This document shows, in pieces, positions 1 through 64,000 of a DNA stretch of 64,000 nt. The DNA lies in assembly GCA_965235115.1 (NCBI GenBank), contig OZ249436.1, positions 22,322,001-22,386,000 of the forward strand, read 5' to 3'. This DNA is from Laetmonice hystrix (taxonomy: Eukaryota). The stretch's first letter is position 1. The number at the start of each line of letters is the position of its first letter. The notes under the pieces were generated by a model, which was not told where the DNA came from, made no database searches, and saw nothing but the letters and a program-made list of their open reading frames with translations. Position numbers and translations under genes: made by a program.

Positions 1-1714
1 CCTCTGAGATTTACCAAACAAACAAACAAAGATATACTTACATACTTACTTAATGTCCCCAGAAATCTAACAACGTACATAACATACCGGTAAGTTCTCC
101 TTTCCCTGGATCCGGCTTAACATTGCTTAATAGCATTCCTAAAATATCATATTCCAGGTAGCCACATTTGTGAACTCTGTAATTAACAAGGCGTTTTGTT
201 CTATGAAACGAAAAACATTATTAAAGTATTTGACTGTCAAAGGTCTTTTATGAGTCGTACCTGGTAGTGGGAGGAGGCAAGTATTACACAAAAACTCAAA
301 TAACAACCAAAAGAACGCAAATAATTCAAATGTCCCAAAAGTTAATTAAAATTTTCTTTAAGCATTCATCTACATGTACTGTGTAATGACTAAGACCTTG
401 TCTGACTTTTAACATCCAAGTTTAAGCGACTGCCACACATGCGAACAGGCGGAATAGATTCAATTTTGATGATCTTACCTCAAAAGACTTCAATTCGTGA
501 GGTGATTGTTACACTATTGAAATTTTAATGGAACTGCAAAATGTAAATGTGGCAATTATGCCAGGCTGTTCATTTGGAAACTTACTCATAATTAATTTGA
601 GTTTCAACGTGAAGTCGGCAGTAATGTGAATCAAGAAGCATAATTCTTAACTTTCATCTTGTACTTTCTGGTGTCACTTCTAATGATGACATTTAAACCT
701 ATTACACTTAAATTTATTACTTGGTTCACATTACAGCAGTATTTATGTTTCAACGCCTGATCTCCGTGAAACTAATATGAATTTTCCATCATTCATCACG
801 ACTATAGGACAACTCAAATAGAAACCCCCTATCCGCTACAACAGTGTAATAACACTGTACCATAAATACAAAAGTGCATTACTAACAGCACAAATGATCT
901 CTGTTTCTTGAGTGAGTGACACTTGAAGTTGACGCCCACTTGCTGCATAGTGAACAGCTGGTTTACTGAAAAGACTGTTCCTCGCGCACACATGGCCCGG
1001 TACCAACGCCCCCTTGCGGCATGCCCAGCAACAATAAATCAGTACACCTGTGCTATCGTAACCAGCCGGCCACACATGGACAGTGGCCTCCTGCAGCTAC
1101 CTGAGGTACGTGTGGTACTATACGTGACACACCGTGCGTACTGTGGGTTACAAACCCCAATACTGGTACCCTGACACCCGACTGGTGAACCATTCAACGG
1201 CCGCTCTACTGATCACATTCATTATGTTTCACTTATAATATCCTTTGTCATCGTTATTCTGCTAGCAAATAAAAGGTCGGACACAGATGCCCTGGCAGGT
1301 TGAACTCCACTTTAATAGTCCATGGAAATAGTGACAGATCGTCTGCAATACCCAGCGATAAAGATCGGACAAAACAATCAAGTCATTGATTTTATTTAAA
1401 AAGAAGTTCCCCAACAGAGAATTTCCTGGCGACAAAATATTTCTGGCGAGGTAGCTGTAGTTGTTCAGGGTGTGTGGGGGTGTGTGGGGGGGGGGGGGAC
1501 TCTCCAATAGAATTTAGTAATGTCTTTAACAATGTCAATAATACCAGTAATCTGACAATGATTGTAAAAGAAGATAGATGACAGATTGCCAGATATTTTA
1601 GACGGTAGATCACTATTGTCTCCCTTTCTCTGGTTACAATTGGTCGGGTTTTTTTGCACTGATACCGTCGCTGTTAGTTTGATGAAGGACGACTTCTGTT
1701 CACAAGTGGCTGAT

Positions 1715-1864
1715 GGGCTCGGTTTTTTCGTTGAGCTCGAGTCAAAGTGGAGACGAAAAGTTCGTCTCAAGCTCACGGCCCTATGAGTCGACTCATAGGG
1801 CCGTGAGCTTGAGACGAACTTTTCGTCTCCACTTTGACTCGAGCTCAACTAAAAAACCGGGCCC
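1715..1864. repeat. 150-bp spacer-less palindrome (foldback / MITE-like)
   Basis: Centre between 1789 and 1790 (GTC|GAC). 1730-1849 is a perfect 120-bp palindrome and extends to 1715-1864 with two mismatched pairs. Confidence 0.95.
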
Positions 1865-2171
1865 TGACCAAAATGTACCGGTCTGCCACTCGAAAACATA
1901 AAAATAACCCTATAAAAAGACGGTAATATGACTGAAATTGGATTGGCGTTGGTTTGGTGAATCCATTGATATTAACCGATATGGTCATCAGTATAATATT
2001 GCGTCCACGATAGCCGATAAAGAGTGGACTGTGAGGGTAATGGTTCATCATGACAGACACCACCTGGAGGCTAGCAGACAGCCAACCATTTACCTGTCTG
2101 CTTCCGTCTGGACACTGGCCTCGGATCGTCTATCATAGAGACATCAGTGACGTTTTTAACGTAACTCGGTG

Positions 2172-3742
2172 AGGGTCACACGTCTGGTCTGGCTGGGAGA
2201 CGGTCACCGTCCGTCACCGTCTGTCACACGTCAGACCTGACTGGGAGAGGGTCACCGTCCGTCACACGTATGTCACACGTCAGACCTGACTGGGAGACGG
2301 TCACACGTCTGTCACACGTCAGACTTGGCTGGGAGACGGTCACACGTCTGTCACACGTCAGACCTGGCTGGGAGACGGTCACACGTCTGTCACACGTCAG
2401 ACCTGACTGGGAGAGGGTCACCGTCCGTCACACGTCTGTCACACGTCAGACCTGACTGGGAGACGGTCACACGTCTGTCACACGTCAGACCTGGCTGGGA
2501 GACGGTCACACGTATGTCACACGTCAGACCTGACTGGGAGACGGTCACACGTATGTCACACGTCAGACCTGACTGGGAGAGGGTCACCGTCTGTCACACG
2601 TCAGACCTGACTGGGAGAGGGTCACCGTCCGTCACACGTATGTCACACGTCAGACCTGACTGGGAGACGGTCACACGTCTGTCACACGTCAGACTTGGCT
2701 GGGAGACGGTCACACGTCTGTCACACGTCAGACCTGGCTGGGAGACGGTCACACGTCTGTCACACGTCAGACCTGGCTGGGAGACGGTCACACGTCTGTC
2801 ACACGTCAGACCTGACTGGGAGAGGGTCACCGTCCGTCACACGTCAGACCTGGCTGGGAGACGGTCACACGTCTGTCACACGTCAGACCTGGCTGGGAGA
2901 CGGTCACACGTCTGTCACACGTCAGACCTGGCTGGGAGACGGTCACACGTCTGTCACACGTCTGACCTGGCTGGGAGACGGTCACCGTCCGTCACACGTC
3001 TGACTTGACTGGGAGAGGGTCACCGTCTGTCACACGTCAGACCTAACTGGGAGAGGGTCACCGTCCGTCACACGTCTGACTTGACTGGGAGAGGGTCACC
3101 GTCTGTCACACGTCAGACCTGACTGGGAGAGGGTCACCGTCCGTCACACGTCAGACCTGACTGGGAGAGGGTCACCGTCCGTCACACGTCAGACCTGGCT
3201 GGGAGACGGTCACACGTCTGTCACACGTCAGACCTGGCTGGGAGACGGTCACACGTCTTTCACACGTCAGACCTGACTGGGAGAGGGTCACCGTCCGTCA
3301 CACGTCTGTCACACGTCAGACCTGACTGGGAGAGGGTCACCGTCCGTCACACGTCTGTCACACGTCAGACCTGACTGGGAGAGGGTCACCGTCTGTCACA
3401 CGTCAGACCTGACTGGGAGAGGGTCACCGTCTGTCACACGTCTGACCTGACTGGGAGAGGGTCACACGTCTGTCACACGTCTGTCACACGTCAGACCTGA
3501 CTGGGAGAGGGTCACCGTCTGTCACACGTCAGACCTGACTGGGAGAGGGTCACCGTCCGTCACATGTCTGTCACACGTCACACCTGACTGGGAGAGGGTC
3601 ACCGTCCGTTACACGTCAGACCTGACTGGGAGAGGGTCACCGTCCGTCAGATGTCTGTCACACGTCACACCTGACTGGGAGAGGGTCACCGTCCGTTACA
3701 CGTCAGACCTGACTGGGAGAGGGTCACCGTCCGTCACATGTC
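2172..3742. repeat. Minisatellite, ~39-bp unit (gtcacacgtcagacctggctgggagacggtcacacgtct) with ~37- and ~48-bp variants
   Basis: Direct tandem repetition; explains the repetitive ORFs SHVRPGWETVTRL. Confidence 0.97.
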
Positions 3743-4202
3743 AAATCTGGCCTGTCGAAGGTCATGTCGCATCTATGACTATGGGCAGTTTTACCTTGAT
3801 CTTGAACTTGGCAGCTAGGGCAGCCCGGAGTTTGAAGTACGGGCCAGAGAGAAGTATGGTATGGTCGGCGAATAGACAGATACCGTATACAAGTATACGG
3901 GTGGGAAAGGTTGCGTTTACCTGCAGCAGGTGTGGTTGTTGGTTTGTCCCACCTGGGTGGTATGCAGAACATCCTTTCCTGCTACTCACTCCCCAACATA
4001 ACCACTCACATTCCAACCAAAAACCCCGCATGGTTGTGTCAAAGTTGATTTGGGACCTAGTTTGTCGGTATTGGGCTTTTCTAAAGGTTAGGGTTCAGTT
4101 GGATTCTACAAGCTGAGAGAAATACTGCTTCCTGTCTGCAGCCACCGAGTCACAGTTAAAAATGGTCTCTTTACTATGTGAGATCTCCTCTTCGCCATTA
4201 TA

Positions 4203-6810
4203 AGTAACGCCCGGTCAGCGTTAGGCCTGGCGGCTCAATTCATACTCAGTATGAGTAACCGTCCGGAGTAACCGTCCGGTCAGCGTTAGGCCTGGCGGCT
4301 CGGGTCATACTCAGTATGAGTAACCGTCCGGTCAGCGTTAGGCCTGGCGGCTCGGTTCATACTCAGTATGAGTAACCGTCCGGTCAGCGTTAGGCCTGGC
4401 GGCTCGGTTCATACTCAGTATGAGTAACGGTCCGGTCAGCGTTAGGCCTGGCGGCTCGGGTGATACTCAGTATGAGTAACGGTCCGGTCAGCGTTAGGCC
4501 TGGCGGCTGGTTCATACTCAGTATGAGTAACCGTCCGGTCAGCGTTAGGCCTGGCGGCTCGGTTCATACTCAGTATGAGTAACGGTCCGGTCAGCGTTAG
4601 GCCTGGCGGCTCGGTTCATACTCAGTGTGAGTAACGCCCGGTCAGCGTTAGGCCTGGCGGCTCGGTTCATACTCAGTATGAGTAACCGTCCGGTCAGCGT
4701 TAGGCCTGGCGGCTCGGTTCATACTCAGTATGAGTAACCGTCCGGTCAGCGTTAGGCCTGGCGGCTCGGTTCATACTCAGTATGAGTAACCGTCCGGTCA
4801 GCGTTAGGCCTGGCGGCTCGGTTCATACTCAGTATGAGTAACCGTCCGGTCAGCGTTAGGCCTGGCGGCTCGGTTCATACTCAGTATGAGTAACCCTCCG
4901 GTCAGCGTTAGGCCTGGCGGCTCGGTTCATACTCAGTATGAGTAACCGTCCGGTCAGCGTTAGGCCTGGCGGCTCGGTTCATACTCAGTGTGAGTAACGC
5001 CCGGTCAGCGTTAGGCCTGGCGGCTCGGTTCATACTCAGTATGAGTAACCCTCCGGTCAGCGTTAGGCCTGGCGGCTCGGTTCATACTCAGTGTGAGTAA
5101 CCGTCCGGTCAGCGTTAGGCCTGGCGGCTCGGTTCATACTCAGTATGAGTAACCGTCCGGTCAGCGTTAGGCCTGGCGGCTCGGTTCATACTCAGTGTGA
5201 GTAACGCCCGGTCAGCGTTAGGCCTGGCGGCTCGGTTCATACTCAGTATGAGTAACCCTCCGGTCAGCGTTAGGCCTGGCGGCTCGGTTCATACTCAGTA
5301 TGAGTAACCGTCCGGTCAGCGTTAGGCCTGGCAGCTCGGTTCATACTCAGTATGAGTAACGGTCCGGTCAGCGTTAGGCCTGGCGGCTCGGTTCATACTC
5401 AGTATGAGTAACGTCCGGTCAGCGTTAGGCCTGGCGGCTCGGTTCATACTCAGTATGAGTAACGCCCGGTCAGTGTTAGGCCTGGCGGCTCGGTTCATAC
5501 TCAGTATGAGTAACCGTCCGGTCAGCGTCAGGCCTGGCGGCTCGGTTCATACTCAGTGTGAGTAACGCCCGGTCAGCGTCAGGCCTGGCGGCTCGGTTCA
5601 TACTCAGTATGAGTAACCGTCCGGTCAGTGTTAGGCCTGGTGGCTCGGTTCATACTCAGTATGAGTAACCGCCCGGTCAGTGTTAGGCCTGGCGGCTCGG
5701 TTCATACTCAGTATGAGTAACCGCCCGGTCAGTGTTAGGCCTGGCGGCTCGGTTCATACTCAGTGTGAGTAACGCCCGGTCAGCGTTAGGCCTGGCGGCT
5801 CGGTTCATACTCAGTATGAGTAACCCTCCGGTCAGCGTTAGGCCTGGCGGCTCGGGTCATACTCAGTATGAGTAACTGTCCTGTCAGCGTTAGGCCTGGC
5901 GGCTCGGGTCATACTCAGTATGAGTAACCGTCTGGTCAGCGTTAGGCCTGGCGGCTCGGTTCATACTCAGTATGAGTAACGCCCGGTCAGCGTTAGGTCT
6001 GGCGACTCGGTCCATACTCAGTATGAGTAACCGTCCGGTCAGCGTCAGGCCTGGCGGCTCGGTTCATACTCAGTGTGAGTAACGCTCGGTCAGCGTCAGG
6101 CCTGGCGGCTCGGTATATACTCAGTATGAGTAACCGTCCGGTCAGTGTTAGGCCTGGCGGCTCGGTTCATACTCAGTGTGAGTAACGCCCGGTCAGCGTT
6201 AGGCCTGGCGGCTCGGTTCATACTCAGTATGAGTAACCCTCCGGTCAGCGTTAGGCCTGGCGGCTCGGTTCATACTCAGTATGAGTAACCGTCCGGTCAG
6301 CGTTAGGCCTGGCGGCTCGGTTCATACTCAGTATGAGTAACGGTCCGGTCAGCGTTAGGCCTGGCGGCTCGGTTCATACTCAGTATGAGTAACCGCCCGG
6401 TCAGCGTTAGGCCTGGCGGCTCAGTTCATACTCAGTATGAGTAACCGCCCGGTCGGCGTTAGGCCTGGCGGCTCGGTTCATACTCAGTATGAGTAACCGT
6501 CCGGTCAGCGTTAGGCCTGGCGGCTCAGTTCATACTCAGTATGAGTAACCGCCCGGTCAGCGTTAGGCCTGGCGGCTCGGGTGATACTCAGTATGAGTAA
6601 CCGTCCGGTCAGCGTTAGGCCTGGCGGCTCGGTTCATACTCAGTATGAGTAACGCCCGGTCAGCGTTAGGCCTGGCGGCTCGGTTCATACTCAGTATGAG
6701 TAACCGCCCGGTCAGCGTTAGGCCTGGCGGCTGGTTCATACTCAGTATGAGTAACCGTCCGGAGTAACCGTCCGGTCAGCGTTAGGCCTGGCGGCTCGGT
6801 TCATACTCAG
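4203..6810. repeat. Minisatellite, 52-bp unit (agtaaccgtccggtcagcgttaggcctggcggctcggttcatactcagtatg), ~50 copies
   Basis: Period 52 (e.g. 4319 vs 4371). The unit junction contains the inverted repeat TCATACT-c-AGTATGA, and the unit contains AGGCCT. Confidence 0.98.
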
Positions 6811-9800
6811 CCAACAGAGGGTGCCCAGGTCAGAGGTCAAACCAGTGGCCATGAGTTACTCTAATATATCGGTGTATGTCCTGGTCGGCTGCCCTCCGTA
6901 CCTCAGTGTTCGACGGCAGCAGAGATAATAATCTAACAGTACAATAAATTAAATCTACAGATAGCTAATTATGCTAAATGCTCCAGGTCCTATAGAATTA
7001 ATGCTAAATCATTCATGAATGGGGACGGAATTAATGTGATGAGGAGCAGCTATCTATACTTACGGGGGTCGGATAGTTCATAGACTCAACACATGAACGG
7101 GTGCCAACGTCAGGGACTCTATTGTTGTGCACCTGAAACCATATGGCTTTTCTCCGTTTCTATTTGTTGCCCACCTTTGAAGCGTGACATCCGATGCTGG
7201 AACAACACCCTCATACCTGACATTGTCGATGATAACACACCTGGCGGCCTACGGACCACAGCCGCATTGTTTTCGTCTATCCATCAATGATGCAGTTTTC
7301 ATTAACAATTACCACAAGCTATTCTCGGTATCTGGTAGTGTTCCACCTGCCTGTCTCTCAGCGTAATACCTTACTGAAGCTATAACCCAACAACTGTTGT
7401 AGGTAAAGGTGCGGGGACGTGTTGTAAAACAATACCCAGACGGAACGTCAGACAGAGATCTTTCCCATGAAGGTAGACGTTATCCTGTCTGCCTTCCTCA
7501 TACCTTGACAAACGGACAGAAATGTTCTCAATCCAGCGTTAACAGTCAGTCCGACAGACGGCACAGATTTTGCGGGAAGAGGAAATTGCTTTATTCCGCT
7601 GTATTCGATTTTTCAATGGCTAACATTTTATATTCTCGTTACCTCAAAGCTTTTCAAACGGTCTTTAAATGGCTCTCCAAAACGTTTCATTATGACATTC
7701 ACATTGATGGGAACCATATTTCACACTAGATATTCCAAGATGTAATAAGCTAACCGACTAAAGGTACGTAATAATATTCACCCCACCTTACATATCGGCT
7801 TTAAGCATCAGAATATCTATCTGACCAAGTCAATATTGTCTTTCACACACCGAACAATATCCTCAAGTCAAATAGTAAATCATAGTTAGGATTATTACCT
7901 TGACCTATCAAGAAATTTTGAACATATCCTATTTGGAATTGCCTGGACGTATCAAATAATCTAAAATACATGTACTTCTACGTCTCTTCAAATCCTTGCT
8001 TTTCAAGTAATTTCTACGTGAAGTAATTACAAGATATCTCCCGGTAAATCTTGTCGTGATGTATGACATAATCCACTCAGTAACTGTTAATGTGCCCTCC
8101 ATGTCGGAGCCACCTTACAACACATCATACCTGTAGGGTTAAAATTGGTCCATCAATATTGTAACCACATCCTACCTGTCTTACAGTCACCCACTCCAAT
8201 ACTTCAGCGGTCCATGCGTCATTCAGATTATCAGTTATAAAACAATGGGTATTGATTAATTCGACTATAAACGCTAAGCGAAGTGACAAGGCTCCAGCAT
8301 CGCTCTGTCTGTGATGCCAGTCACTCCGTTTTTTTTCGATATCTACCGCCTTAGCCTCATATATTACTGACCTATCAATACAACATCTGATGTTGCACAT
8401 TGTTACAATTGAGAAACATGAGTTTGCAATTTGCTGGTGTAATTTGTCACGTGGGCATGAAAGCAGGCAACAAATAACATACTGTGCATGACTCGCCAAG
8501 CGGTCCCGGAATGTAAAGATAGTGGTGCCAATTCAGGTCAGGTGTTTCTAGGATAGCAGGAATGGGATTACAGAATGGGTAAAAAAATTGGTCACTAAGA
8601 CAAAACAAAGCTCTGTAGTTGACACAAGTGTGTGCAAAGTGTGTTAAAATGGCAATATTGCCATTTCCTGAAAAAGCCTTTTATTTAGCATATTTCAATC
8701 CTAATACGTTTTCAAACAAATCCTCTCGATAACACTCAAATGACCTCACCACAGGAAAAATACCCGTTTCAAAGTTCATTGATATAATTTTTCTATACTT
8801 GTATATTATCACAGTATACAATCACCAATAACTGAACCATAAAGGAGGTGGTGTGACCTCCTTACCGACAGGTTAGTATATAATCAAGTAGTGACCCACT
8901 CAGTTGGTGTACACCGCTCAGCATCTACTGTCCACGTTTTCACCGTAACCTGGCCCCCAGCCAACACAACCCATGTATGCCTCATTTGCAATTATTTCAT
9001 TATCAATTTCCTTTTGGCTTCATTAGTTAGCCACGGCTGCCTTGCCCGTGGCTAGGGCGCCGTGATGCCGACCAGGGCCCGCCGAGTCTGGAGAGGGTGG
9101 TGGCCGAGGGAACTGCGGGTAGAGCCGGGGGGGGGGGGGGTAGGTTGTCTGTTGTCAGTCTGATCTCATCCCCGCCCAACCCCCTAATCTGACCACCTGC
9201 AGACCTTACCAACTCTACCCCCTGTCCATGATTCCCGAGTCGACCCCAGCTATTGTCATCTGCAGTTACCCCCCCCCCCAACCTTCCTATGGGCTCCCCA
9301 CAACTCGCCATTATCCAGCCAGTGCTGAGTGTCCTTAGGTCCGCAATCAGTCTCACTGTTTTCCCAATCTCCTATTGTCTGCCTGCTCAGTGAGATGCCT
9401 CAAGGATATTCATCGGGTTGAGCGAGGTGGGCTGTTGAAATCGGTAAATGCCAAGCCATTATGTATTAGGGGGAAGCAGTGGGCTGGTGGTGTGAAATAT
9501 AATCATTCTTAATCCGCCAGTATTGTGGGCTGTGATTGGGCGTGCGCCGTGCCAGAGTGCGTAGTGTTTGACGATCCACACTGTTCCCACGACACTGACA
9601 CGGCGACCGGCATCGATCAGCATTGTTTGCGCCCTGCGCCCTGTAGCTGTTTGTCTCAGTCACCATGAAAGGATACAGCCACCATGGGCAGGCAACAAAA
9701 GCCGAGGATTGCAATTCAGTGGGCTCCAGTAGCTAGCAGTAAGTGTGGACAGCCAGGGACAGGCCGTGGCTGTCAGCAGCTGCCGGCCTGCCCGCCCTGC

Positions 9801-12800
9801 CAGCCAAGCCTGTGCACCCACACGGAGGCGTTACTGTAGAAACACGCCCAAGCCACAATGATGGAGGAAGTAGGGAGAGAATAGCAACAGCACCGCAACA
9901 TCAAACAACATGATTGATCAATGCACTGGGCAGGGAGCCAAGTGGTGCAGGGGTGCCATAGTGGGGCGGCTAGTAATGAGGGGGTAGGGGCTGCTATCTG
10001 GGCCAGCCTCCTATACACCCCTGGGCACACCTCAACCAAGGGCCAGTGGGGGCAGTACACACACCTGGACTGTCAACTTCACCTCACGTGTACACCCACA
10101 CATCACGCTACGTAATCTTGGAATACTGCCTACACGTCCTATTGGCAAATCTAGAACTATGAAAACTTTATCAAACTTGTTATCCCTTCCAAGTTTAGCC
10201 TGACGAACACCCCCAACTTCATAGACTACTTATTTCATATTCCACAGACGGCATACAGCACTTTGCATTGAAAAACGCGCTCAGCTGTAGATTGCTAAGG
10301 AATGGGTATCTTTTGTGAGCACTGCAATATCCTTTGGGAAGAAGCTAATGCCGAGTTGCTGTAGGAACATTTGTGGTGGTAATGGACCTGGAAATGTATT
10401 TATAACAGATTAAATGTCTTATTCTTTGATACACACTCTACTTACTCCTATCATTACGGCATGTCTTGGTAGAGGCTTGCTGGCAGTAATTTCTATTTAC
10501 TAGATTTATTTGTTTGATGAAAATACAATGCAGCTAGCATCTTTGTAGGTAGACGTGCCTACAGAATTCCTCCACGCTTCACAGCCAAGATGTACTCAGT
10601 AATGGCTAAATGCACTCACTCCCCGTTCGTTGATGGATTTCTGAAGGGATTCAGCTGTGAAGAAATTCTATTATCAGTGTATGTTTCAGATCACGCTTTA
10701 TCAAGTACATCTCCAATATACAAAGTCTGAAGCAAACCTAAGTCTGTTAGAAGTGCAAAATGCATAATGATAAACGCCAGCGTTGCCGCCAATAAAAACG
10801 CCACATCAGTAGCCAGGCCCGTCCGTCGGTCCGACCCATTATTTTCATTATTCCTACAATAGCTCGCCCCCTTTTTTAAACAGGCCATATCGCTATGATG
10901 GCGTTCTAGCCGTAACTGACGCAAGCTGAGCTTGTGAAAAAAAGGATGCTTTCAGATGAGGTGAGCGATGTGGGTGGTTGGACTGCAGACCCATGTCGGC
11001 ACTGAGGCCGACCAACCCTCTGCCGAATCTCCCATCGACTCCATCAGCACACGTCCATCTCGTTAAGGCCCCTCCATCATGTAATTTTTCTACATTCCGC
11101 CTTCAACAATTTTAATGAATTTTCCATTAAGTTATTTAGCTAAATGGTGGTGCTGTCAGCTTGGTGCAGCTTAAGCTTCTTGGGCCTAAGTGACTGGTGA
11201 GCTTGGGCCGTGGATACATTAGGGCGGCTTGCTGTGGATACATTAAGGATGCTGCCATTGCCCGACTTCCCAATTCCCATCTTTATGTCGCCATCAAGTC
11301 ACGTCAGAGAATGCTACTAGATGGAGATGACGCCAGAGGAGTACCACAATATTTATTTACATACATATATATATAAAATGTATTTTTATCCTTAGCCCGA
11401 CATATGGATAGTTGGGAAAAAGAAATTCGATTTAAAATATTATGTAGAAAATGCTCTGTGATACCGTAATACTGCTTCTCTAGCACTGCTGATCAGACAT
11501 AGCTTTAATTAGTACTGTAACCTCATGTCACAACGTTTCAGTTACCCTCACATTATTAACCATACATGTTTCAAGACAAGATCTCGGGTTTCAATGTCAC
11601 CGGCAGATGTCATATCCTCACAGCCTGTAAAACCCGCTACAGCTCCTGTAAAAAAAACACAACCAACCCGGTTCTCTTTTCTCCAGTCCAACCCGTCCTA
11701 ATGTAGCCCGTTGTAAGCTGTCACAAGCAGCATCATATTGCATCTTTCCCAGGACCGTAAGGCCTTAATCAGCCGGAGGGCCTGAAGAGGACTCCCGTTA
11801 TCTGTGCATGCCTTCCCATGCATGGTCACCAAGGGCACCCCCGTGCAGTGCACGTGGCTGCGGCTGTACACACTAACAGTATAATAGTGTCACTCTGGCA
11901 CTTAGCAGTCAGATCTAAGACAAAGACTGAAGCAGGCAGGTAGGAAGGTCGGTAAGGGAACGGTACTCAAGGCAGTGCAATAGCATGTCAGCGAGCCGCC
12001 TGGACCGGGGCTAAGCGCTAAGCCTGTTTCATACTGATTACAGTCGACGACAAAGCCGCGCGGAGAAGTCGCACAACCGGGGGGCATTTGTGCTTGATTC
12101 AACTTAACCGATGCATTGTAGCATGGCAGCGCGGGCGAACTCGATCTTGGTAGGCAAGACGTCTCAACCTGTTACTTCAGTACGGTGTCAGACTGTGTGT
12201 TTGAAGTGCGATTGTTGGCGATCTCACGTGACCTGTTATGATCAGGGATCAAAGAATAAGGTAGCGCAGGTACTTTACGATGGCCGCCAGTCATGCACGG
12301 GTCTGGAGGCCTGGCAGTCCTGCCAAAGGCACAGCTGAGCAGGTAAATATCAGGCACTGTCAACGTCCGACCAATCCTTATTATTATGTCGGCCTCCCAA
12401 TGAAGCACCCCTACTGCCCCTGTCATTATTTCAGGCCATCGATGATTTATGGACAGCTAGAACAAGAGTTTACCGCGTTCCCATGGGTTGCTCAGGTATG
12501 GATTTAAAAAAAAATAAAATAAAAGACAGGAAATAAAAATGGATGGGTGTTAGCACCCGGTTCGTGTGACCTAGAGCATGCTTTTTGCGTCAACAAAGGT
12601 CGTAAAGTACTCGGCAGCATCGCATATGTTAAATGTTGACAGCAGCCATATCATGCTCAAGTTAAGTTTGTTCGCAGCTCTTTGCTGCGGACATTTCTAT
12701 ACAGCTGCCATGGCAATGAACCGTGCTCATGAATTCATGGGGTGGCCGGCCCAAACACAGCGTGTCGGACACAATGCGAACGCCCACCCGGCTGTGTGTT

Positions 12801-14409
12801 GGCGAGGCTTGCGAGCTCGTCCGTACAAACAACCTTCTTCCATTGATCTCCGCCTGCTTGTTTAAAGGCAACGTGCACCGGCCAGCTCGCAGTTTGTCGT
12901 TGGACACCCCACAAACAGTCGCCGTCAATATTTATTCTCATGTGCTCGCTCAAGATTGCCGGTGTTGTGTTACAAGGCATGACTGGAGCGCCGATCGGCG
13001 TGCAGAAGTCAGTGGACCTAATAAAGACAGCGGTGAGCTTTGATTACCGCCGCCAAGCCTGGCGGACCGGTGACGGGCCCCGTGCACACGTTCGCCGGTG
13101 GTCGACCATCGATCCCGGCCCACCGACACCAACGTGCGATCTATACTCCTCTACCAATACGTCGCCTCCCAACACCCCAGTTCAAAAGTCACAACCAGCT
13201 CCCATGTATCTGTCCACTGTGCAAGCATTCATTTTTTAAAAGCGCTCAAAACGTCTGGCGCCACTCATAAAGATCGCGGAGAAGAAACGTTTCTAATGAA
13301 CCATATTTGTTTTGAGATAGTTCTATCTTTTGATCACCTAATTAATCTCAACAGGGAGGTTCCTTACAAATATTTACCACTGGAAAACGCCAGAAACGGG
13401 ATTTTAATCTATAAATATTCAAATTAAAGCGTGTAACTTTCTCTTCCTATTGATGCGTTCAGGTGAAATGTCCTCCCCTGAATACTCCCCGTCACGGTGA
13501 CAACGTTTTACATGGCTGCTGTAGTCACTCCAGCAGGGACCCCCTGCCACTATCATATCTGTGAAACCTGACCCTTTAAGTGAGACCTCCACCGCTGCCA
13601 AGAAAACCTAAGATTCCTTCTCACTTTTACTAACACACACGGAGCTCCAATTCATAACACCTTCCAAGTAGCTTTGCTCTACCTCATAATATAATTTGGC
13701 CTTTTCCAATTCTGGTGCGGAGGCTGAATTTGAGCGACGTTGAAAAGGGGGTTAAAACACTCCCACTCGGCTGGAATTTCATTGTGTCCTCACCAGCCAC
13801 AGCACCAACTCGCCCTGAAGCGCTTAGCCCGCCTCTTCAAGGGTCGGCCTTCTTGGCAGCATCCCTTTTCTAGGAAGTGTTGCCATGGCAGCTGAGTACT
13901 GGTCCACTTAGCAGTGATGGCCCAGTTTCTGTTCACTGATCAGAGCGCCCCTCGGTCCTCACAAAGCTTACGTCTCCCTCTTACACTTTCACCAATCCAA
14001 CCAAAGGCACCGTCACGCCGCTGGTTATTTCAACATTGAGGCCACCTTATTTCGGTACAAAATAGCAACTGCCCCCGGTGTGGTTGGCTCGCCTTTACGT
14101 CCCTTGTGGGTCCGGGCTCTTTATCTGAATTAGGATGCTCTCCATCCGCCTCAGCTGTATCTGTACAAACAGTGTTCTGAAGCTCCACCGGGAGCTGAAG
14201 CTGAGGCGGGGTTCACTGTGTTGGTATTCACCCTAGGTTCGGGGAGGAGGAGATTTGTGGCTGTAGTTGAAGGTGGGTGAGGGGTGTTACCCGGTCTCAG
14301 GTAGGGGTAGCTACGTGACCATGATACCAATAAGACAGGTACCTGTCATCCGATAATCTGGGCCTGTCCACTGTAATCCATGATTTAGGTGGTCGGCTTC
14401 AGGCCGTGA

Positions 14410-26127: not shown

Positions 26128-26319
26128 CTCAATAAAGTTGGCGAGAAGGTCACAGGACAGTTCTTGTTCCAGGATTTCTCTGTTGCCATGACTACAGTAG
26201 CAGCAGCATATGAGCGTTGGGAAGAGGACATTAGTGAGAGCTGGGTCACTGAAGTATTGGAAGGGTAGCAGACAGAGTTGTTGTAGAACAGTTGGCGGCT
26301 GTCCTGACTGCATCATCAC
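26128..26319 (-). CDS. SCAPER: SCAPER internal coding exon (64 aa: VMMQSGQPPTVLQQLCLLPFQYFSDPALTNVLFPTLICCCYCSHGNREILEQELSCDLLANFIE), phase 0/0
   Basis: Contains the SCAPER hallmark 'QSG..PTVLQ.LC.LPFQYFSDP.L..VLFP.LI' and continues in frame from the 59098-58949 exon. Acceptor ttttatgttccAG at 26321-26320, donor GTaagt at 26127-26126; length 192 nt. Confidence 0.96.
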
Positions 26320-35759: not shown

Positions 35760-35773
35760 GTTACCATGGCAAC
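35760..35773. promoter_or_regulatory. RFX X-box-like motif (GTTACCATGGCAAC)
   Basis: Matches the X-box consensus GTTNCCATGGNAAC. Motif match only. Confidence 0.4.
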
Positions 35774-35863
35774 GAGACAGCTTGGAGTTTGTGTTTCCAT
35801 TAAAACATCGAAGGCAACGAGGCATGTGTGACGTGGGGGAGCGAACTGTGGTAAAAGCTGCTT

Positions 35864-43746: not shown

Positions 43747-43750
<4 letters not shown>

Positions 43751-45933: not shown

Positions 45934-46300
45934 GGTAACCATTGGAGATAGGTAACAGAAACCATTGGAGATAGGTAACAGAAACCATTGGAGATAGGTA
46001 ACAGAAGCCATTGGAGATAGGTAACAGAAGCCATTGGAGATAGGTAACAGAAATCATTGGAGATAGGTAACAGAAGCCATTGGAGATAGGTAACAGAAAC
46101 CATTGGAGATAGGTAACAGAAGCCATTGGAGATAGGTAACAGAAGCCATTGGAGATAGGTAACAGAAATCATTGGAGATAGGTAACAGAAGCCATTGGAG
46201 ATAGGTAACAGAAATCATTGGAGATAGGTAACAGAAACCATTGGAGATATAGGTAACAGAAACCATTGGAGATAGGTAACAGAAACCATTGGAGATAGGT
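45934..46300. repeat. Minisatellite, 23-bp unit (ccattggagataggtaacagaaa/g), ~16 copies
   Basis: Period 23 (45962 vs 45985). Confidence 0.97.
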
Positions 46301-51140: not shown

Positions 51141-52153
51141 ACGGACGCCGGCCACCACACCTGTACATGTAGATTATGCAGGCCACGGACGCCGGCCACC
51201 ACACCTGTACAGGTAGATTATGCAGGCCATGGACGCCGGCCACCACACCTGTACAGGTAGATTATGCAGGCCACGGACGCCGGCCACCACACCTGTACAG
51301 GTAGATTATGCAGGCCACGGACGCCGGCCACCACACCTGTACAGGTAGATTATGCAGGCCACGGACGCCGGCCACCACACCTGTACAGGTAGATTATGCA
51401 GGCCATGGACGCCGGCCACCACACCTGTACAGGTAGATTATGCAGGCCATGGACGCCGGCCACCACACCTGTACAGGTAGATTATGCAGGCCACGGACGC
51501 CGGCCACCAAACCTGTACAGGTAGATTATGCAGGCCACGGACGCCGGCCACCACACCTGTACAGGTAGATTATGCAGGCCATGGACGCCGGCCACCACAC
51601 CTGTACAGGTAGATTATGCAGGCCACGGACGCCGGCCACCACACCTGTACAGGTAGATTATGCAGGCCACGGACGCCGGCCACCACACCTGTACAGGTAG
51701 ATTATGCAGGCCACGGACGCCGGCCACCACACCTGTACAGGTAGATTATGCAGGCCATGGACGCCGGCCACCACACCTGTACAGGTAGATTATGCAGGCC
51801 ATGGACGCCGGCCACCACACCTGTACAGGTAGATTATGCAGGCCACGGACGCCGGCCACCACACCTGTACAGGTAGATTATGCAGGCCACGGACGCCGGC
51901 CACCACACCTGTACAGGTAGATTATACAGGCCATGGACGCCGGCCACCACACCTGTACAGGTAGATTATGAAGGCCATGGACGCCGGCCACCACACCTGT
52001 ACAGGTAGATTATGCAGGCCATGGACGCCGGCCACCACACCTGTACAGGTAGATTATGCAGGCCATGGACGCCGGCCACCACACCTGTACAGGTAGATTA
52101 TGCAGGCCATGGACGCCGGCCACCACACCTGTACAGGTAGATTATCCAGGCCA
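51141..52153. repeat. Minisatellite, 44-bp unit (ggacgccggccaccacacctgtacaggtagattatgcaggccac/t), ~23 copies
   Basis: Period 44 (51143 vs 51187). The unit contains the perfect 12-bp palindrome ACCTGTACAGGT. Confidence 0.98.
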
Positions 52154-54526
52154 GCCCATTACCTATAACTCCTCTCATTCAAGTACGTCGTTCACACTAC
52201 AGATTTTTGGCCTTAACTATTTGTTTCTATGTTAACAAGGCCACGCATTCAAACGGTCGGAGGCATGCAGTGATATAAAATGCAATTACATAACGTGAAT
52301 TTAATTAGACCGCAGAGCACGGCACCGCACCCCGCTTAGGAATATTAAACCTTATATTCACATCTGGTAAATTCTAACAGCCTCTTTTATGTAAATTCTC
52401 ATAATGGGAGTTCTAGTCGTATAGCTACGATCTTTGAATGCTGTATCTTAGACATATATGTCATCATGTTCCATATAGCATTTCTAAGACTTGGGGAATA
52501 AAACGAATACACAAAACTTAGATATATGCCAGTCACCATGTCTTTAGAAATTTAGCGATTTCATAGTTTTCCTGCCGTTTTCATCATCATTTACTCTGAT
52601 GGAAATTGCTCTGAGAGAAATTCAGCCCAGTAAGCAACTGACAGCGGGAGGGTTTGTAAACTGAAGGACTTGGGCTCCTTGACAATTTCAACACAATTTA
52701 CAACACAATAACACACTAAAATCTTGGGCTCATAATTCTACTCTCCATCTAGGGGAGATTATTCGTGGTCGATCTCTTTTTCCCTGGGCGGCGTACCCTC
52801 TGTCAGGACCCCCCCCCCCGGTGGTTTATTTGCCGACCTGACCCCCCACGGGGAGGCCGTAACGTCGGCTGTGCCCGGACGCTGGGCCGTCATCCGCCGG
52901 CAGCCGACACCCACGCTCTCGGTCTCTCACACACCGACTCCCTCCGATGTATCTCCTGCGAGTCGTCACTAATCTCCAACCACCCAGCCCCCACGGTGAA
53001 GGGTTCACACAGACCTGGCAGCAGGCCTGCCCGTTTTAAAAGCAAAACCCACCACTCCAAACCCCAGAGGTGAGCTGCCCTGCTTTTAGCTAATTTGTGC
53101 GCAAATGTGCACTGCTGCATCATGCCACTATACACGTTTCGGATCGCGCCGACATGAAAGCGCCAAGTGCGGGGCCTCATTCCATTCGACAATTTACTTA
53201 CGAATCACCGATCGATGCCGCCCGCATTACACCACATACATTTGTACATTCCAAACGGAAGAAAGACTCTGTTCTACAGAGGATTTTTTGTGTGATACAG
53301 ACCTTTGGAAATGGAGGTAACATAACGCAAAAACAAAGATTCAGAGACCAAGGCCTGCTGGGCTTAATGTGTCAGCAAAATCCATGTTTCACAGGTGTAG
53401 TCTCAAAACGCATCCACCCTACTTAGAAGGTCCCTGAAACAAAGCTTCGCGAAGCTTTTAATACATATATTTCAAACTGGCCTTAATGGCTCCAGTCGAC
53501 ATGACGAATTTCGATGTCTGTGTTGTTGAGAACCGCTCCACTGTTATGGCCGCCAGGTATAAATAGGACCTATGGATTTTACAATGCACTGTATACAATG
53601 TTTTCAGTCAGCATCTAATGCGGAAAACTTCGCAGCACAACAGGCATTATTCAGGGACCACTCTTATGTCGAATTACACCCAACCTCTTCCCATGTGTGA
53701 ACTATTAACTGCAGAAACCCGGCCCTTGTATAACAAATATATTTCTGTTTGTGTGGTGTGGCACCCCTAGCATGGTTCGGCTTGTCTTGTATTACTATCA
53801 TTAAACACAAGATTTTATCCCAATCATAATTATTTCCATAATTATTCCTATCACTGGTGATATCCCCACTATCAGTCTCTCTCATTATCCTACCCATTAC
53901 TCTGTACACAACCCGTACATCAGAGACATTCGTTACCTTGGTCACCTTGATCAGGTGAGCTTACCACTAAATAAAAAAAGGTGCCAGATAAAAACGTGTG
54001 CCTATTGTACGGGGCCACAGCACTGGCCAGGCAGCCTGTATTTGGCCCCATTCGGTTTGCCTTTAATTGAGCCGTACACGCAACATGGTGGGTGTTGTCA
54101 TCGGGCCCGATTGTCGTGTTTTCACTACCGTCCGTCATGAATCATGAATGATACAACGTACGCTGCTCGACTGTGCACTTACACGCTCTGCTAGAGACAA
54201 TAACATTCATATGATCGGCTGTCTGACGTGTATTCTACACCGTATCCCGCCTAGTCAATGCTAAATTAATTCAAAGTAAAATGAGGTGAATTTCCCAACG
54301 TTTATTGCTAAATATAGTGTAAATATATAACAATCGTCAACCAAAATAAGGCCTTCACAATAACCGAACGGCAAAGACAAATACGACCCTTCATCCATGT
54401 TTTTCATTTTCCTCGCTCTGCCTGAATCTTGTATTATGTTAAACAGGAGACATATGAAATGAATGTTTCCTTGGTTCCCCCGTGTCGAGAACTTCACGCC
54501 CATGTAGACCAATACGACTACAGCTA

Positions 54527-58948: not shown

Positions 58949-59098
58949 CTGGTTGTCCTGGTTGAGCACGGTAAAGTAACCCACACTGAGGATAACCTCG
59001 TGGAAGAGTTCCTCCTGAGTCCAATGATTGCAGTACCAGGCCAGGTAGGCGACGATATGGCGTAACTCCAGGGATGTGCCTTCCTCACCCAGCACCGT
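58949..59098 (-). CDS. SCAPER: SCAPER internal coding exon (50 aa: TVLGEEGTSLELRHIVAYLAWYCNHWTQEELFHEVILSVGYFTVLNQDNQ), phase 0/0
   Basis: Translation resembles the SCAPER C-terminal region as I recall it (human approx. SIVGAEGLSLAFRH...LLHEVIVCVGYFTVNHPDNQ). Canonical acceptor tgtttgttgattgttgcAG at 59100-59099 and donor GTacgt at 58948-58947 on the minus strand; length 150 nt. Confidence 0.95.
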
Positions 59099-60659
59099 CT
59101 GCAACAATCAACAAACATAGAATTAGTGGATAATCTGGCAGATAATTTACACTACCAAAGTCTTCGATTAGTGAGCTACTGAGAGAAACAGCAGGTAAAA
59201 CATCGGTTCAGTGACAAATGGTACGTGTGGACTTTCTAAAGGTTTCGATACAATGATGGGTTAGGAGGGGTCAGCCAGGGGTGCTGCCTGGGTTCGTACT
59301 ATTACGTCACGATGAAAAATCCAAAGGAGGCAGAGCCTCCTGTAAACGACTACTCAATGACAATAAATTTCATGTAGATGTGTTGGATGATTCGGAGCAG
59401 CAGCAGCAGCAGGTTGGAGCAGATGCTGACAGCGGATCTCTGGTGGCCTGACTTGGCTAACAATCTCTCCACAGTGTAATCTCCTTCAGATAGTTGAGAG
59501 AGAGCGAGATCTACAGGAGAGAGGCTTCCTTCTATTATCTACCTGCTATTAAAAGTTAACACTTAATGACAATCTAAAAACACTTATACAAGCCGTAAAG
59601 GACAATATTAAGCTAGGACAAAGATATATATTCATAAACCTGTGGGGGGGTCGGGGGACAAAAAACAACCAACTCTAACTTGATGAAAAGAAAAAAAAAT
59701 TAAGTGGAGCCTACACCCGGTCACTGGCAATGTTTACATTTTGTAGTCACTGACACTGACGGGAAGGCGGGCACATGTCCCGACCGGCGGCCGTCAGTGA
59801 GTCCTCGAGTTCTACCTGCATTCATTGCAGAAATACCACATCGTTCTTCTCCAAACTTCGCGTACAATGAAGATAACACGTTCCACAACTTCTTGCCAAT
59901 TTTCGCCCAGATATGATATTTGGCTCTGTATACCGATGTTTGTAAGGTAGACCGCGCCCCCACTGGGCCGTGCCGCCGTCGCATAATGTAAACATCGTCT
60001 GCGACAGGGTACAGGCTTCACTTAAAGATTTATTTTCTCGCTAATGAAGCGACTCTGAGACAAACTATTATGTACCTTCGTGTCTACTAGCATCAGGGCA
60101 TCAAGTTAGTTGGTTGTTTTTTTTTATAGGTTTTCGGACAGGGTTATGGATATATCTTTGCCCTCCCTTTAACACTGCCAGAACCTCCTCCCCTTGAACT
60201 TCAAATACACTGGGGTATAGCTATATTGATATCACTGAGGTATATCATTTTCACAGAATTCATTTAGAACTCATTTCATCTCAGTTAATCTCAGCAACAT
60301 GTAATTTTCGATTTATTAAATAAGAAGGTCGACGAAAAGCGTGTGTTCTGAACGATGTGTTCCTTATCTCAGAAATAATTTAAAAGACTCTAAAACCATT
60401 TTTGTAGTAGCTACTGTATTCATACGATACCTTTTGCAATTTGTCATGCACCATTACGGTTGCAGATACTTGCTGCAAAATTTCAAATCCCCCCCCCCCC
60501 AACTCCCATTTCACATTACCTCCCGGTGATATTGAAAATACCCCTCCAGTTTCAAATCACCCCCCTCCTCTTCCATTCCACATATCTCCTGGGCCCAGTA
60601 TCTCGAAAATTCTCAACTTCAGTAAAGCTTACTTGAGTAAACTTACTGGCTTTTGATTA

Positions 60660-62150
60660 GCTGGTCTTTATAGGTCCCGCAAGGTCATGGAAAATAGCAC
60701 CAGAGGAAGGTTCAACAATGACTTCTTATTTGTCAATAATAATAATTATGTCATTATATTCAACTTTTTTGGACATGAATATTACAAGCCATTGAAAAAA
60801 TACGTGACCTTGAATGACCTTTCACCTTCACTTGAGGTAAAGGAAAATAGTGTCAACTGAAACTTCGTATATAACTTCCTATTCATGTTAAATAGCAAAC
60901 TTTGTCTTTATCTAACACAAGTTTCGGGATATGAGCCATTCAAAATATGTATGACCCTGTTTGACCTTTACAGGTCACTTAAGGTCACGGAAAATGGCAC
61001 TAAACCAAAGTTCATGTATGACTTCTCATCTGCGAATAAAGTAACTACTACGTTATTTTGCACCATTTTCATGATATGGGTCAAACAAATTTGCGTTTGG
61101 GGTAAAAAAAATAAAGCCGCCATGTTACCATATTAATCTGAGCAGAAAATAGATTGGCATGCTTGCTGCCGCTCATATGGCTTCTCTCGTCAGTTTGAAA
61201 GAAATCCAGACAATTTTGGAGTTATTGCTCCAAATGTGTTTACACCCAAGATGAGCAGCGAGCGGCCTTTTTAAATGCCATCTTTGGACTGTCCCTGATC
61301 ATTGTGTACTGTTTCAAGCAAGATTATGTCGTTATCTTTAATGTTTTGGAGATAAAGGCCATTGAAAATATGCATAACCGTGACCGACCTTTCAAAGTCG
61401 TGAAAGGTCATGCAAAATAGCGCCAAACGAAAGTCTATACATGACTTCCTATCTGCCAGTAATATAACCATTGCGTTATCTAGCACCATTTTCGAGATAT
61501 GAGCCCAGTGTTATTTTGGGGGTCAAAAAACAAATTTGCTATGAAGTGACAATAGGTTGGCATATATATATTGCCCCTCATATATGCTTCTTCTCTGTCC
61601 AAATTTGAAAGAAATCGGGATCGATTTCTCAAAAATCTATTTGACGTGTATCATCCTCAGACTCAGACCGTCCCTGATCCCGTACGGACGTTGGTACGTT
61701 GGCACATCCAGACGGACGGATAGTAAATTAGAAGCCCGCGCCCCTTCGGGTTGGGGGTTAAATAGTGTGAAATGAAACTTTCTATTCATCATCAATAGTA
61801 ATCATATCATTATAGTCTCTCATTATACCCGTATTGAAGATACAATATGTTCCATTGAACAGTTCAACACACACATGACCTTTCTGACTTTTAACCCATG
61901 AAGGTCATGGATAATTGGGTCAAAGAAAGATGGTTTATGTATGCCTCTGAGTCTCTCTCTGTAAATAATAGACCGATAGTTTGCAAGATATCAATGAAAA
62001 AGGGGGTCCAAAATATGTCCTCCAAGTCGTCCTATTGGATCTGAACTGAAAATAAATCGGCATGCAATTTGCCCCCACCATCCCTCCTCTGTACACCATG
62101 CAAGTTTGAAAGGAATTCAGATTTTGTAGTCAGAGTTTTTGCGATCCACA
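60660..62150 (-). mobile_element. Helentron/HINE-like element copy 3 plus adjacent or nested related remnant
   Basis: Shares gagttattgctccaaatgtgtttaca, gcgttatct.gcaccattttcgagatatgagcc and the terminus attagaagcccgcgccccttcgggttggggg (61728-61757) with the other copies. Related sequence continues to about 62150; boundaries are approximate. Confidence 0.6.
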
Positions 62151-64000
62151 AACATTATAATAGTACATGTACACACACAACTGTGGCAATCATTGTCCAC
62201 CAATTGGCTGATGAACGACTAAAATAGCAATCTCTACTTGGCCGGATATTTATGGGGTATTTTCAGTCTAGAGGGCATACTTCGAAAGTAAGTTCAAGTT
62301 ACTCCCTCAAGCTCTCTGGTAGGCATCGTTAAGATTTTGCTAGTCTTAATAAGCATACAACAGCCATCGCAATTACAGTACAATTTTTACAGGTTAACGG
62401 CATGAGGTCATCAATTAAAAAACAACGTCGCGTGGTCTCGTAAGCTCACGTTTCAAATCTGTTCTAATTATTCTCTGACTCTTATAGACATAAACTCCTT
62501 TCTTGCCTTTGTTCGATCATAGACCCCATGCTTTTCTTGGAAGCCGATTCCATCTCCTCAGAAAATGAAGTTAGACATTTCTCACGGCAGATGGTTCAGG
62601 CGGTACTGGCATAGGATCTGAAAACGTCTTGTCTTTCTCTGATGGCCACTCTTCTGCTTGACTTGACTGAGAAGTGCTGAGTCACTGCTGTGGAGCGTGG
62701 TACCGTCACACCCCTGCCCTCTCATTAATTGGTTAATTGGGGTTGAATTGGGGTGTCAGGGGGAGGTCACAGCTCGAGCGTGTTGCTCGTTAGCTGTTTA
62801 TTGTGTCTGGCGTCCCGTCAGAAAGTAGTCGAGTGGGGAGCAGAGCCCTGGACCAGATAGAAACCGACCTCTTATATCAGTCACTTTGTTGGCGGCTCCT
62901 CCTCCTCCTCCCCCTCCTCCTCCTCGTCATGGGGCTGATGCTCATAGTCCTGCTCATTCCACGCGACCACCTGATGCGTTATTCCTGTCCCATACCAAAC
63001 TCCTTCCTTCACTTTTCATCAAAGTTCGCAAGACTATTTTCAACATCGGCTAGTAATCAGCACGCGACGTCCGTATCGCTATCACAGGCAGCTGTACAAC
63101 TGCAGACAAACACAGATAAATCCAACCTGATTGCAAACCAATCTTCATGATCACGTTGTCTTCCCAGTAAGATTGCACGAGTGGAAAGAAACGCGATCCA
63201 ATATTGTCAGGTTAATCAAGGCGTATACGGCGGGGTGCTGGTCGAGGATCGAGTGGGACGGACGGGCGGAGGCTGACCGGCCCTCCGTCCACCTTCACTC
63301 TCCGTGCCCACCATCCGGCCACGTCCACTCGCCCAATTCCCTCATCAACTTAATGGGTCCAGGAACGACTACTGGAGAGGTCTGGCCAGGTAGGTAAATA
63401 GGCTTCAAGACCATGGCAGGCTGGAGCCTGTGGCGACTTGAAGACCGTAGTGGTCTGTCATCTGTACGTTCTCGTCGACCGGGAGCCGGTATTAGTGAGC
63501 TGCAGACCCCAGCAAGGACGGCCACCAAAGTTGTGCCAACACAGACGAGGGATGCGAGTAATTATGGCTTTGAGTCGACAGAATCCATTATATGGATTTT
63601 AATTGCACTTTGCAGTCTCCAATATTTGGGTGGAGGCCGGCAGAGCCAGAAGGCAAAGCTGCCATCATAAGAGCCATTACCTCTAATGCATGTTACTTGA
63701 AACTCGGCAGACTTTTTCCATTTGCCTCCATCAATTTTGTGGCACTTAGTGTCTGCACATTTCCGCTTCCATCCCTGCTAGCCTCCTGAGCCACGAGCAC
63801 AAGGTTCAATGGACTATACAACACACCTTTGTTTTTCCTTCGCTGGCACCACTGCGTACATACTGAACCTTTGGGTGCTGATCAGGAGCAAACCTCTCTC
63901 CTGGCGAACTGGCCTTGAATTACATTTTGATGAGATAATGCAGCTCTTGTGTTGGATCAACACGGTAGCTCATATAAACCCTGCCGCACTGAGGACGAGG

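What the first reader, a model, noticed from the sequence alone, without database searches (positions are those of the whole stretch)
1..64000. Giant 3' introns of SCAPER: candidate enhancer reservoir of the Islet-Scaper genomic regulatory block
Seen: only 342 recognisable coding bases in 64 kb, with a 32.6-kb intron and probably another of more than 26 kb near the 3' end of SCAPER. Established: Scaper is the bystander gene of an ancient microsyntenic pair with the LIM-homeobox gene Islet (human ISL2-SCAPER, tail to tail), and Islet enhancers have been reported in Scaper introns (Irimia et al. 2012; Wong et al. 2020). Inference: an Islet orthologue should lie to the left of position 1, and the unique DNA between the repeats should hold its long-range enhancers, probably uncharacterised in this lineage.
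Basis: partly seen in the sequence, partly recalled or inferred. Interest (0 to 1): 0.75.

Follow-up and report, generated by a model that had tools for sequence, protein, structure and literature searches.

The report
Giant SCAPER introns, likely Islet enhancers
In what is probably a marine bristle worm, two very long, mostly non-repetitive introns of the housekeeping gene SCAPER look like the known storage place for control switches of the nerve-development gene Islet, but Islet itself lies outside the stretch that could be read, so this is a likely new example of a known arrangement rather than a proven one.

Summary
Observation confirmed. Two minus-strand SCAPER exons (59098-58949, 26319-26128; 342 nt) flank a 32,629-nt intron. 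The next exons are not in the window, so the next intron exceeds 26.1 kb. The organism is probably a polychaete.

Repeats explain little: 74% of the window is not repeated within it, and 24 of 30 bins of an 11.4-kb test stretch attract no extra contigs. Homeodomain sites (TAATKR) are modestly enriched, 169 against 126-132 expected.

In two related metagenome loci (L013, L014) the same two introns are also long and share 15 collinear non-coding blocks with 13 exact runs of 25-49 nt. None of these blocks matches the window. In 27 other loci the A-B intron is only 0.2-4.1 kb.

Islet linkage could not be tested, because no genome is held. It is published for 8 of 8 non-vertebrates. Verdict: probable new member of the known Islet-Scaper regulatory block, with enhancers and target inferred. 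The scan had no earlier SCAPER note.

The parts
58949..59098 (-). SCAPER exon A (150 nt, 50 codons, phase 0/0)
   Evidence: best named relative Paralvinella P0080, 83% over the matched part, 40 of 50 residues
26320..58948 (-). Intron A-B, 32,629 nt, GT-AG. 7,204 nt tandem arrays, 2,748 nt dispersed or inverted repeats, 22,677 nt (70%) not repeated within the window
26128..26319 (-). SCAPER exon B (192 nt, 64 codons, phase 0/0)
1..26127 (-). Intron B-C1, >26.1 kb, runs off the window towards the SCAPER 3' end; 79% not repeated within the window
   Evidence: baseline contig depth over most of 15.9-26.2 kb
59099..64000 (-). Upstream intron, >4.9 kb
   Evidence: no upstream exon found
16004..16060 (.). 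Candidate enhancer core: four TAATT[AG] homeodomain sites in 57 nt, in a baseline-depth stretch (function inferred, untested)
53798..54097 (.). Densest TAAT/Sox motif cluster (9 hits in 300 nt); part of it is ATC/ATT-rich low-complexity DNA, so a weaker candidate
40298..40597 (.). Motif cluster (6 TAAT/Sox hits in 300 nt), candidate element, untested
343..642 (.). Motif cluster (7 hits in 300 nt), AT-rich (34% GC), candidate element, untested
2223..6775 (.). Two minisatellite arrays (39-mer about 37 copies; 52-mer about 48 copies)
14410..15515 (.). 43-mer minisatellite arrays
26933..37367 (.). Cluster of arrays (100-mer x14.6, 33-mer x67, 76-mer x5, 106-mer x3, 32-mer x38), with unique DNA between them
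45937..52153 (.). 23-mer x15.7 (45937-46300) and 44-mer x23 (51141-52153) arrays, with 4.8 kb of unique DNA between them
26440..26930 (.). Degenerate dispersed repeat, with further copies at about 41.2-42.0, 56.5-57.3 and 60.7-61.6 kb
   Evidence: (contig pile-up at 26188-26930)

Best explanation
This is the 3' part of the SCAPER gene of a probable polychaete annelid, acting as the bystander of the ancient Islet-Scaper genomic regulatory block. SHOWN: gene identity, two conserved phase-0 exons, introns of 32.6 kb and >26 kb, and mostly non-repetitive content. INFERRED: Islet lies beyond the SCAPER 3' end, left of position 1. Long-range Islet enhancers, clusters of homeodomain and other factor sites, sit in these introns and loop over the SCAPER 3' end to the Islet promoter. 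A break between them would separate Islet from its enhancers, so the pair stays linked and the introns stay large. The enhancers change in sequence faster than in function, so they align only between close relatives (as L013 and L014 do) and not to this window. Minisatellites and one dispersed repeat family add about a quarter of the length as passengers.
For: (1) ISL2=SCAPER is conserved in 8 of a maximum of 8 non-vertebrate species (PMC7530604 Table S1 and legend). In Irimia's set it was lost only in C. elegans and Nematostella. (2) Islet enhancers or candidates are reported near the Scaper 3' end in mouse, zebrafish and fly (bioRxiv 10.1101/633651 section 7), and amphioxus Isl contacts Scaper by 4C. 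(3) Repeat inflation explains little: 47,474 of 64,000 nt are not repeated within the window, no transposon ORF was found, and 24 of 30 bins in 15520-26930 stay at baseline depth at >= 85% likeness in all three runs. (4) L013 and L014, among the nearest loci in the trees and the nearest with long flanks, also have long introns here. They share 15 collinear non-coding blocks (7,288 of 16,371 comparable nt) and 13 exact runs of 25-49 nt, although only 15 of 27 four-fold sites in exon B agree. Most gaps in the blocks are not multiples of 3, and only the exon shows clear codon periodicity. In 46 control pairs of similar exon identity there were 4 such runs in all. (5) TAATKR occurs 169 times in the window's unique DNA, against 131.6 and 125.5 in di- and trinucleotide shuffles (z 2.9, 4.3). 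It is also enriched in the L013 blocks (24 against 11.9 and 16.5), but not in L013 non-block DNA or six other control sets (ratios 0.71-1.16). (6) A polychaete mean intron of 2,242 nt, described as similar to other polychaetes (PMC11730519), is about 15 times shorter.
Against: Islet was not seen. There is no genome, no Islet motif in the window or the 80 loci, and other routes failed. No L013/L014 block matches the window: best non-exon nhmmer E 0.031, in a tandem array; best 20-mer identity averages 14.84 against 14.78 in shuffles. The A-B intron is 229-4067 nt in all 27 loci where it was measured at over 100 nt, so large size is not required by the gene. L003 and L045 have >10-kb introns without TAATKR excess. 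TAATKR was chosen after a first pass over 15 motifs, the excess is only about 40 sites in 47 kb, and the controls are other species. The Sox-type motif is also enriched in one control set. The 46 control pairs come from one clade and are not independent, and some of them align over a large share of their short span (799 of 1,053 nt). The four-fold estimate rests on 27 sites. Repeats older than 85% likeness would escape, which covered only 11.4 of 64 kb. This genome's own intron-size distribution is unknown.
Confidence: 0.66

Rival explanations
1. Neutral intron inflation: the introns grew through minisatellites and old, decayed mobile DNA and hold no special regulatory content.
For: 19% tandem arrays plus 6% dispersed or inverted repeats. 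No non-coding similarity to any of 80 loci other than a repeat and tandem-array noise. Unchecked notes on the same chromosome describe minisatellite-swollen introns. The orthologous intron is small in many animals.
Against: 74% of the window is not repeated within it. Baseline depth in 24 of 30 bins. No transposon ORF. No copies of splice junctions in the arrays. TAATKR excess. Conserved blocks in the orthologous introns of L013/L014.
Confidence: 0.17
2. The introns do hold enhancers, but their target is not Islet. The block was rearranged in this lineage, and they serve another neighbour or SCAPER itself.
For: The neighbour is unseen. The pair is lost in some animals. Massive rearrangement is documented within annelids, in clitellates (PMC11371463 passages).
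Against: Linkage is published in 8 of 8 non-vertebrates. The nearest named relative is a non-clitellate polychaete.
Confidence: 0.1
3. The left 26 kb is not an intron. SCAPER ends by reading through the exon B donor (7 more codons, then a stop), and the DNA is 3' UTR plus intergenic desert; or the assembly has lost the last exons.
For: The frame continues to a stop at 26109, and an AATAAA lies at 25056. Arthropod-like relatives lack the conserved tail. 19 database proteins end by such read-through, most likely prediction errors.
Against: The donor is a perfect GAG|GTAAGT. The tail is present in most of the 42 full-length relatives aligned and C1/C2 exons are found in related loci. Contigs tile 15.6-26.9 kb, one of them spanning 8.3 kb with 2 differing letters and 1 gap.
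Confidence: 0.07

Closest known systems
Islet-Scaper genomic regulatory block (Irimia et al. 2012, PMC3514665; Touceda-Suarez et al. 2020, PMC7530604; Gaiti et al. 2017, PMC5429095)
   Same: Same bystander gene, introns over 10 kb, same end of the gene. Human SCAPER has 16 introns over 10 kb. Sponge Scaper has longer-than-average introns with enhancer marks.
   Different: Here Islet, chromatin marks and contacts are unseen. The functional data I read come from vertebrates, amphioxus, sponge and fly. A search for scaper + islet + annelid returned 0 papers.
eISL enhancers of sponge, human, mouse, zebrafish and fly (Wong et al., bioRxiv 10.1101/633651)
   Same: Reported near the Scaper 3' end, with shared motif content and no alignable sequence. 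This fits the lack of cross-lineage alignment here. Recalled, not from a call: the human element at chr15:76,358,600-76,359,500 lies in the roughly 22-kb intron between the human 150-nt and 192-nt exons, the orthologue of intron A-B.
   Different: No element here has been tested. I did not run their motif-composition method, because their sequences and matrices were not available.
Minisatellite-swollen introns ('mirage'-type arrays), as in earlier scan notes on this genome
   Same: Private tandem arrays inside introns.
   Different: They make up only 19% of the window, and no array copies a splice junction.

Membership tests
SCAPER orthologue | Homology to the conserved C-terminal region | tested here: met
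SCAPER orthologue | Conserved exon borders and phase, intact frames, GT-AG sites | tested here: met
SCAPER orthologue | N-terminal SCAPER_N (PF16501) and zinc finger (PF12874) | not testable with these tools
   outside the window; no genome
Islet-Scaper genomic regulatory block | Islet adjacent to SCAPER on the same chromosome | not testable with these tools
   absent from the window, which ends before the SCAPER 3' end
Islet-Scaper genomic regulatory block | Islet at the SCAPER 3' end (convergent orientation) | not testable with these tools
   orientation recalled for human; not found in the text read
Islet-Scaper genomic regulatory block | Bystander introns over 10 kb | tested here: met
   32.6 kb and >26.1 kb
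Islet-Scaper genomic regulatory block | Conserved non-coding elements in the bystander introns | tested here: inconclusive
   none detectable in the window, but no close relative's DNA was available; present in the orthologous introns of L013/L014
Islet-Scaper genomic regulatory block | Low mobile-element content | tested here: inconclusive
   no transposon ORF; 24 of 30 bins at baseline; no genome-wide baseline for comparison
Islet-Scaper genomic regulatory block | Enhancer chromatin or reporter activity in Islet domains | not testable with these tools
   only a modest motif excess
Islet-Scaper genomic regulatory block | Physical contact with the Islet promoter; expression unlike SCAPER's | not testable with these tools
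   needs 4C or Hi-C, and RNA data
Mirage-type minisatellite (tandem copies of a splice junction) | Array unit contains an exon-intron border | tested here: not met
   four junction strings searched at >= 72% identity gave only self-matches and one 16/21 match at 55883, outside the arrays

The most novel reading that the evidence does not exclude
Annelid-type genomes differ sharply at this locus. Some (this window, L013, L014) keep giant SCAPER 3' introns rich in lineage-specific conserved elements and homeodomain sites. A whole clade of others (L004-L033) has sub-2-kb introns with almost no such elements. If Islet stays linked in the first group and is detached or rewired in the second, these introns are a natural experiment on how a 700-million-year-old regulatory block is kept with complete enhancer turnover, or dismantled. 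They would also supply mapped candidate Islet enhancers in a spiralian, which I did not find reported.
Probability: 0.3. Interest if true: 0.6.

Novelty: new member of a known kind. Interest (0 to 1): 0.36.

Why it matters
The Islet-Scaper pair is the textbook case for enhancers conserved in function but not in sequence. The functional data I found come from sponge, fly, amphioxus and vertebrates. An annelid locus with 47 kb of non-repetitive intron, and a related species pair whose conserved blocks can already be mapped, would give ready reporter candidates to test that claim in Spiralia. The arrangement itself is known and expected, so finding it here would not surprise a specialist.

Tried and rejected
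Getting DNA left of the window: no genome is held, and the metagenome records behind the loci are not searchable. Finding an Islet sequence to compare gene order in named genomes: a short recalled homeodomain pattern found 0 matches in genome contigs, viral contigs, the window and 80 loci. A paper search for accession numbers next to six SCAPER accessions gave 0. Expression: no RNA holder listed. Constraint from polymorphism: only 27 variant places in 11.4 kb, from contigs of one sample, too few and too collapsed to use. Shared elements with L013/L014 or other loci: none. The 19 tblastx rows outside the exons were scattered or in tandem arrays and were not followed up. An AG-preceded open frame shared by L013 and L014 was considered as exon C1 and rejected: no pyrimidine tract, conservation runs through the AG, and there is a 1-nt indel. 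CpG observed/expected is 0.73 in unique intron and 0.41 in the exons, but the other loci checked range from 0.42 to 0.92, so it does not discriminate. Long repetitive ORFs at 2.2-4.1 and 29.6-32.1 kb are frames through minisatellites. Islet and Scaper do not occur in the main text of PMC10735318 or PMC5010895; the supplement of the first was listed but not read. The careful tree did not finish. Both trees are quick searches on 113 columns, and the second dropped six long-branch rows. No folding or complex prediction was run, because the question is non-coding.
Full report
OBSERVATION. Six-frame reading found two minus-strand exons: A at 59098-58949 (150 nt) and B at 26319-26128 (192 nt). Both have canonical AG/GT sites in phase 0, total 342 nt, and flank an intron of 32,629 nt. 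Exon B retrieved 77 proteins among 81 candidates, mostly named SCAPER, led by molluscs, annelids and nemerteans at 71-84% and an unnamed protein, P0004, at 91%. Exon A retrieved 1 of 13 candidates, a Paralvinella protein at 83%. Two quick trees place the window with P0004 (SH-aLRT 95 and 93) and loosely with L001, L013 and L014 (92 in the first tree, together with L034, L036 and L039; 85 in the second, together with Paralvinella). A polychaete is likely but not proven.

The exons that should follow B are absent. An HMM of the tail from 42 proteins gave nothing. Related loci split the tail into two short exons, so I built one profile for each. These recover the exons in control loci but not in the window. 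The intron after B is thus over 26.1 kb, unless the gene ends at B. No Pfam family reached its cut-off in 133 frames of at least 75 aa, and Rfam and ARAGORN found nothing.

WHAT FILLS THE INTRONS. Tandem arrays cover 12,425 nt (19%) and dispersed or inverted repeats 3,759 nt (6%). The other 47,474 nt (74%) are not repeated within the window. I laid contigs of three runs of one sample on 15520-26930, which is 11.4 of the 64 kb, at 85% likeness. Of 30 bins, 24 stayed at baseline depth, and one contig spans 8.3 kb with 2 differing letters and 1 gap. Of the six high bins, four coincide with C/G runs or a CT microsatellite and two with a dispersed repeat (this attribution is my inference). Summed contig depth is not a copy number, and older repeats would be missed. 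Within those limits the stretch is correctly assembled and largely single-copy.

COMPARATIVE EVIDENCE. A metagenome scan gave 80 loci with exon B. The A-B gap measured 229-4067 nt in 27 loci, 65-74 nt in 5, and showed no intron in 18. The remaining 30 give lower bounds only, among them >10 kb in L003, L013 and L045 and >6.4 kb in L014. Short contigs bias measured values downward, and many loci are near-duplicates. B to C1 is 0.2-1.5 kb in the compact loci where C1 was found, and >10 kb in L013 and L014.

L013 and L014 agree at 88.5% in exon B but at only 15 of 27 four-fold sites. Even so, they share 15 collinear intronic blocks on both sides of the exon, with 60-nt windows up to 98% identical and mostly non-triplet gaps, and 13 exact runs of 25-49 nt. 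Only the exon shows clear codon periodicity. From 28 loci of at least 3 kb I compared all 47 pairs with exon identity 0.84-0.985. The 46 other pairs gave 0-803 alignable non-exon bases and 4 runs of 25 nt or more in total; they belong to one clade and have short spans. The orthologous introns therefore carry the conserved non-coding hallmark of a regulatory block in a related lineage. None of these blocks is detectable in the window, as expected at about 72% exon identity, but this leaves the window's own conservation untested.

MOTIFS. After a first pass over 15 motifs I tested six against 40 di- and trinucleotide-preserving shuffles in 1-kb pieces. TAATKR occurs 169 times in the window's unique DNA (expected 131.6 and 125.5) and 24 times in the L013 blocks (11.9 and 16.5). 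It occurs 9 times in L013 non-block DNA (11.8 and 7.8), 270 times in 15 compact loci (271 and 250), and at ratios of 0.71-1.06 in five other sets, including the long-intron loci L003 and L045. The signal is modest, partly post hoc, and lacks a same-genome control. The tightest cluster is four TAATT[AG] sites in 16004-16060.

LITERATURE. PMC3514665 (passages only; supplement unavailable): Isl-Scaper is linked in all studied species except C. elegans and Nematostella, a zebrafish scaper intron enhancer drives isl2a-like expression, and bystanders have more introns over 10 kb. bioRxiv 10.1101/633651 (first of four parts, passages, and section 7): the mouse, zebrafish and fly elements lie near the Scaper 3' end. 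PMC7530604 (passages and supplement rows): conserved in 8 of 8 non-vertebrates, 4C contact in amphioxus, and a second element at chr15:76,824,258. PMC5429095 (passages): sponge enhancer marks in Scaper introns 10, 17 and 21. PMC11730519 (passages): polychaete mean intron 2,242 nt. PMC11371463 (passages): genome scrambling in clitellates. PMC12153100 (passages) had nothing relevant. Searches for an annelid account found none: scaper + islet + annelid gave 0 papers, scaper + regulatory block gave 8 with no annelid title, and none of the 25 papers listed of 479 contained 'scaper'. Subscription papers, including the journal version of Wong et al., were not searched. The human tail-to-tail orientation and the human exon coordinates are recalled.

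MECHANISM AND VERDICT. The best reading (0.66) is that these introns are the enhancer-bearing part of the Islet-Scaper block: elements loop to an Islet promoter beyond the SCAPER 3' end, are held in place by selection against breakage, and turn over in sequence between lineages. Gene anatomy and low repeat content are shown. Conserved elements are shown only in relatives. The target, the enhancers and the looping are inferred. The rivals are neutral inflation (0.17), another target (0.10), and a gene that ends at exon B (0.07). It works like a regulatory-block bystander, but membership is unproven because the defining feature, the Islet neighbour, could not be tested. It is a new member of a known kind; interest 0.36. 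The contrast between giant, element-rich introns and compact, element-poor ones at the same position is the part most worth following up.

Noticed in passing
L013:2964-19999 and L014:20-13744: Fifteen collinear conserved non-coding blocks in the SCAPER introns of two related metagenome contigs, with cores of up to 49 identical nt; ready candidates for Islet enhancers in that lineage.
   Followed up: yes
L004-L033: A clade of loci with A-B introns of 0.25-1.9 kb where measured and almost no intronic conservation; the regulatory block may be dismantled or relocated there.
   Followed up: partly
window 1715-1864: A 150-nt near-perfect palindrome (97%) with no spacer; possibly a collapsed foldback element.
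   Followed up: no
window 42893-43527: 93-nt inverted repeats (92%) around a 449-nt core, MITE-like; no target-site duplication was established.
   Followed up: partly
window 26440-26930, 41230-42060, 56500-57290, 60700-61560: A degenerate dispersed repeat family with TGACCTT..AAGGTCA palindromes. It attracts many contigs and resembles L015:6425-6605 at 62-75%, so it is shared across distant lineages; family not identified.
   Followed up: partly
L013:12827-14062 (-): A 412-aa open frame that reads like a mariner/Tc1-type transposase (label from recall, not scanned). It lies in a part of the intron that does not align to L014.
   Followed up: no
database proteins P0006, P0008, P0016, P0027, P0030, P0080: Several gene models break or read through at exactly the A-B or B-C1 borders (Littorina, Ridgeia, Lamellibrachia, Lottia, Elysia, Paralvinella), which hints at long introns there too.
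   Followed up: no
window 15520-26930: Few differences between the contigs and the window (27 places, about 0.2%), clustered near 15.6-16.0 and 24.1-25.0 kb.
   Followed up: partly
L054, L056, L062: Compact, GC-rich loci where SCAPER ends at exon B. In L054 and L056 a kinase-like gene follows, and in L062 a zinc-finger-like gene, not Islet (labels from reading the translations).
   Followed up: no
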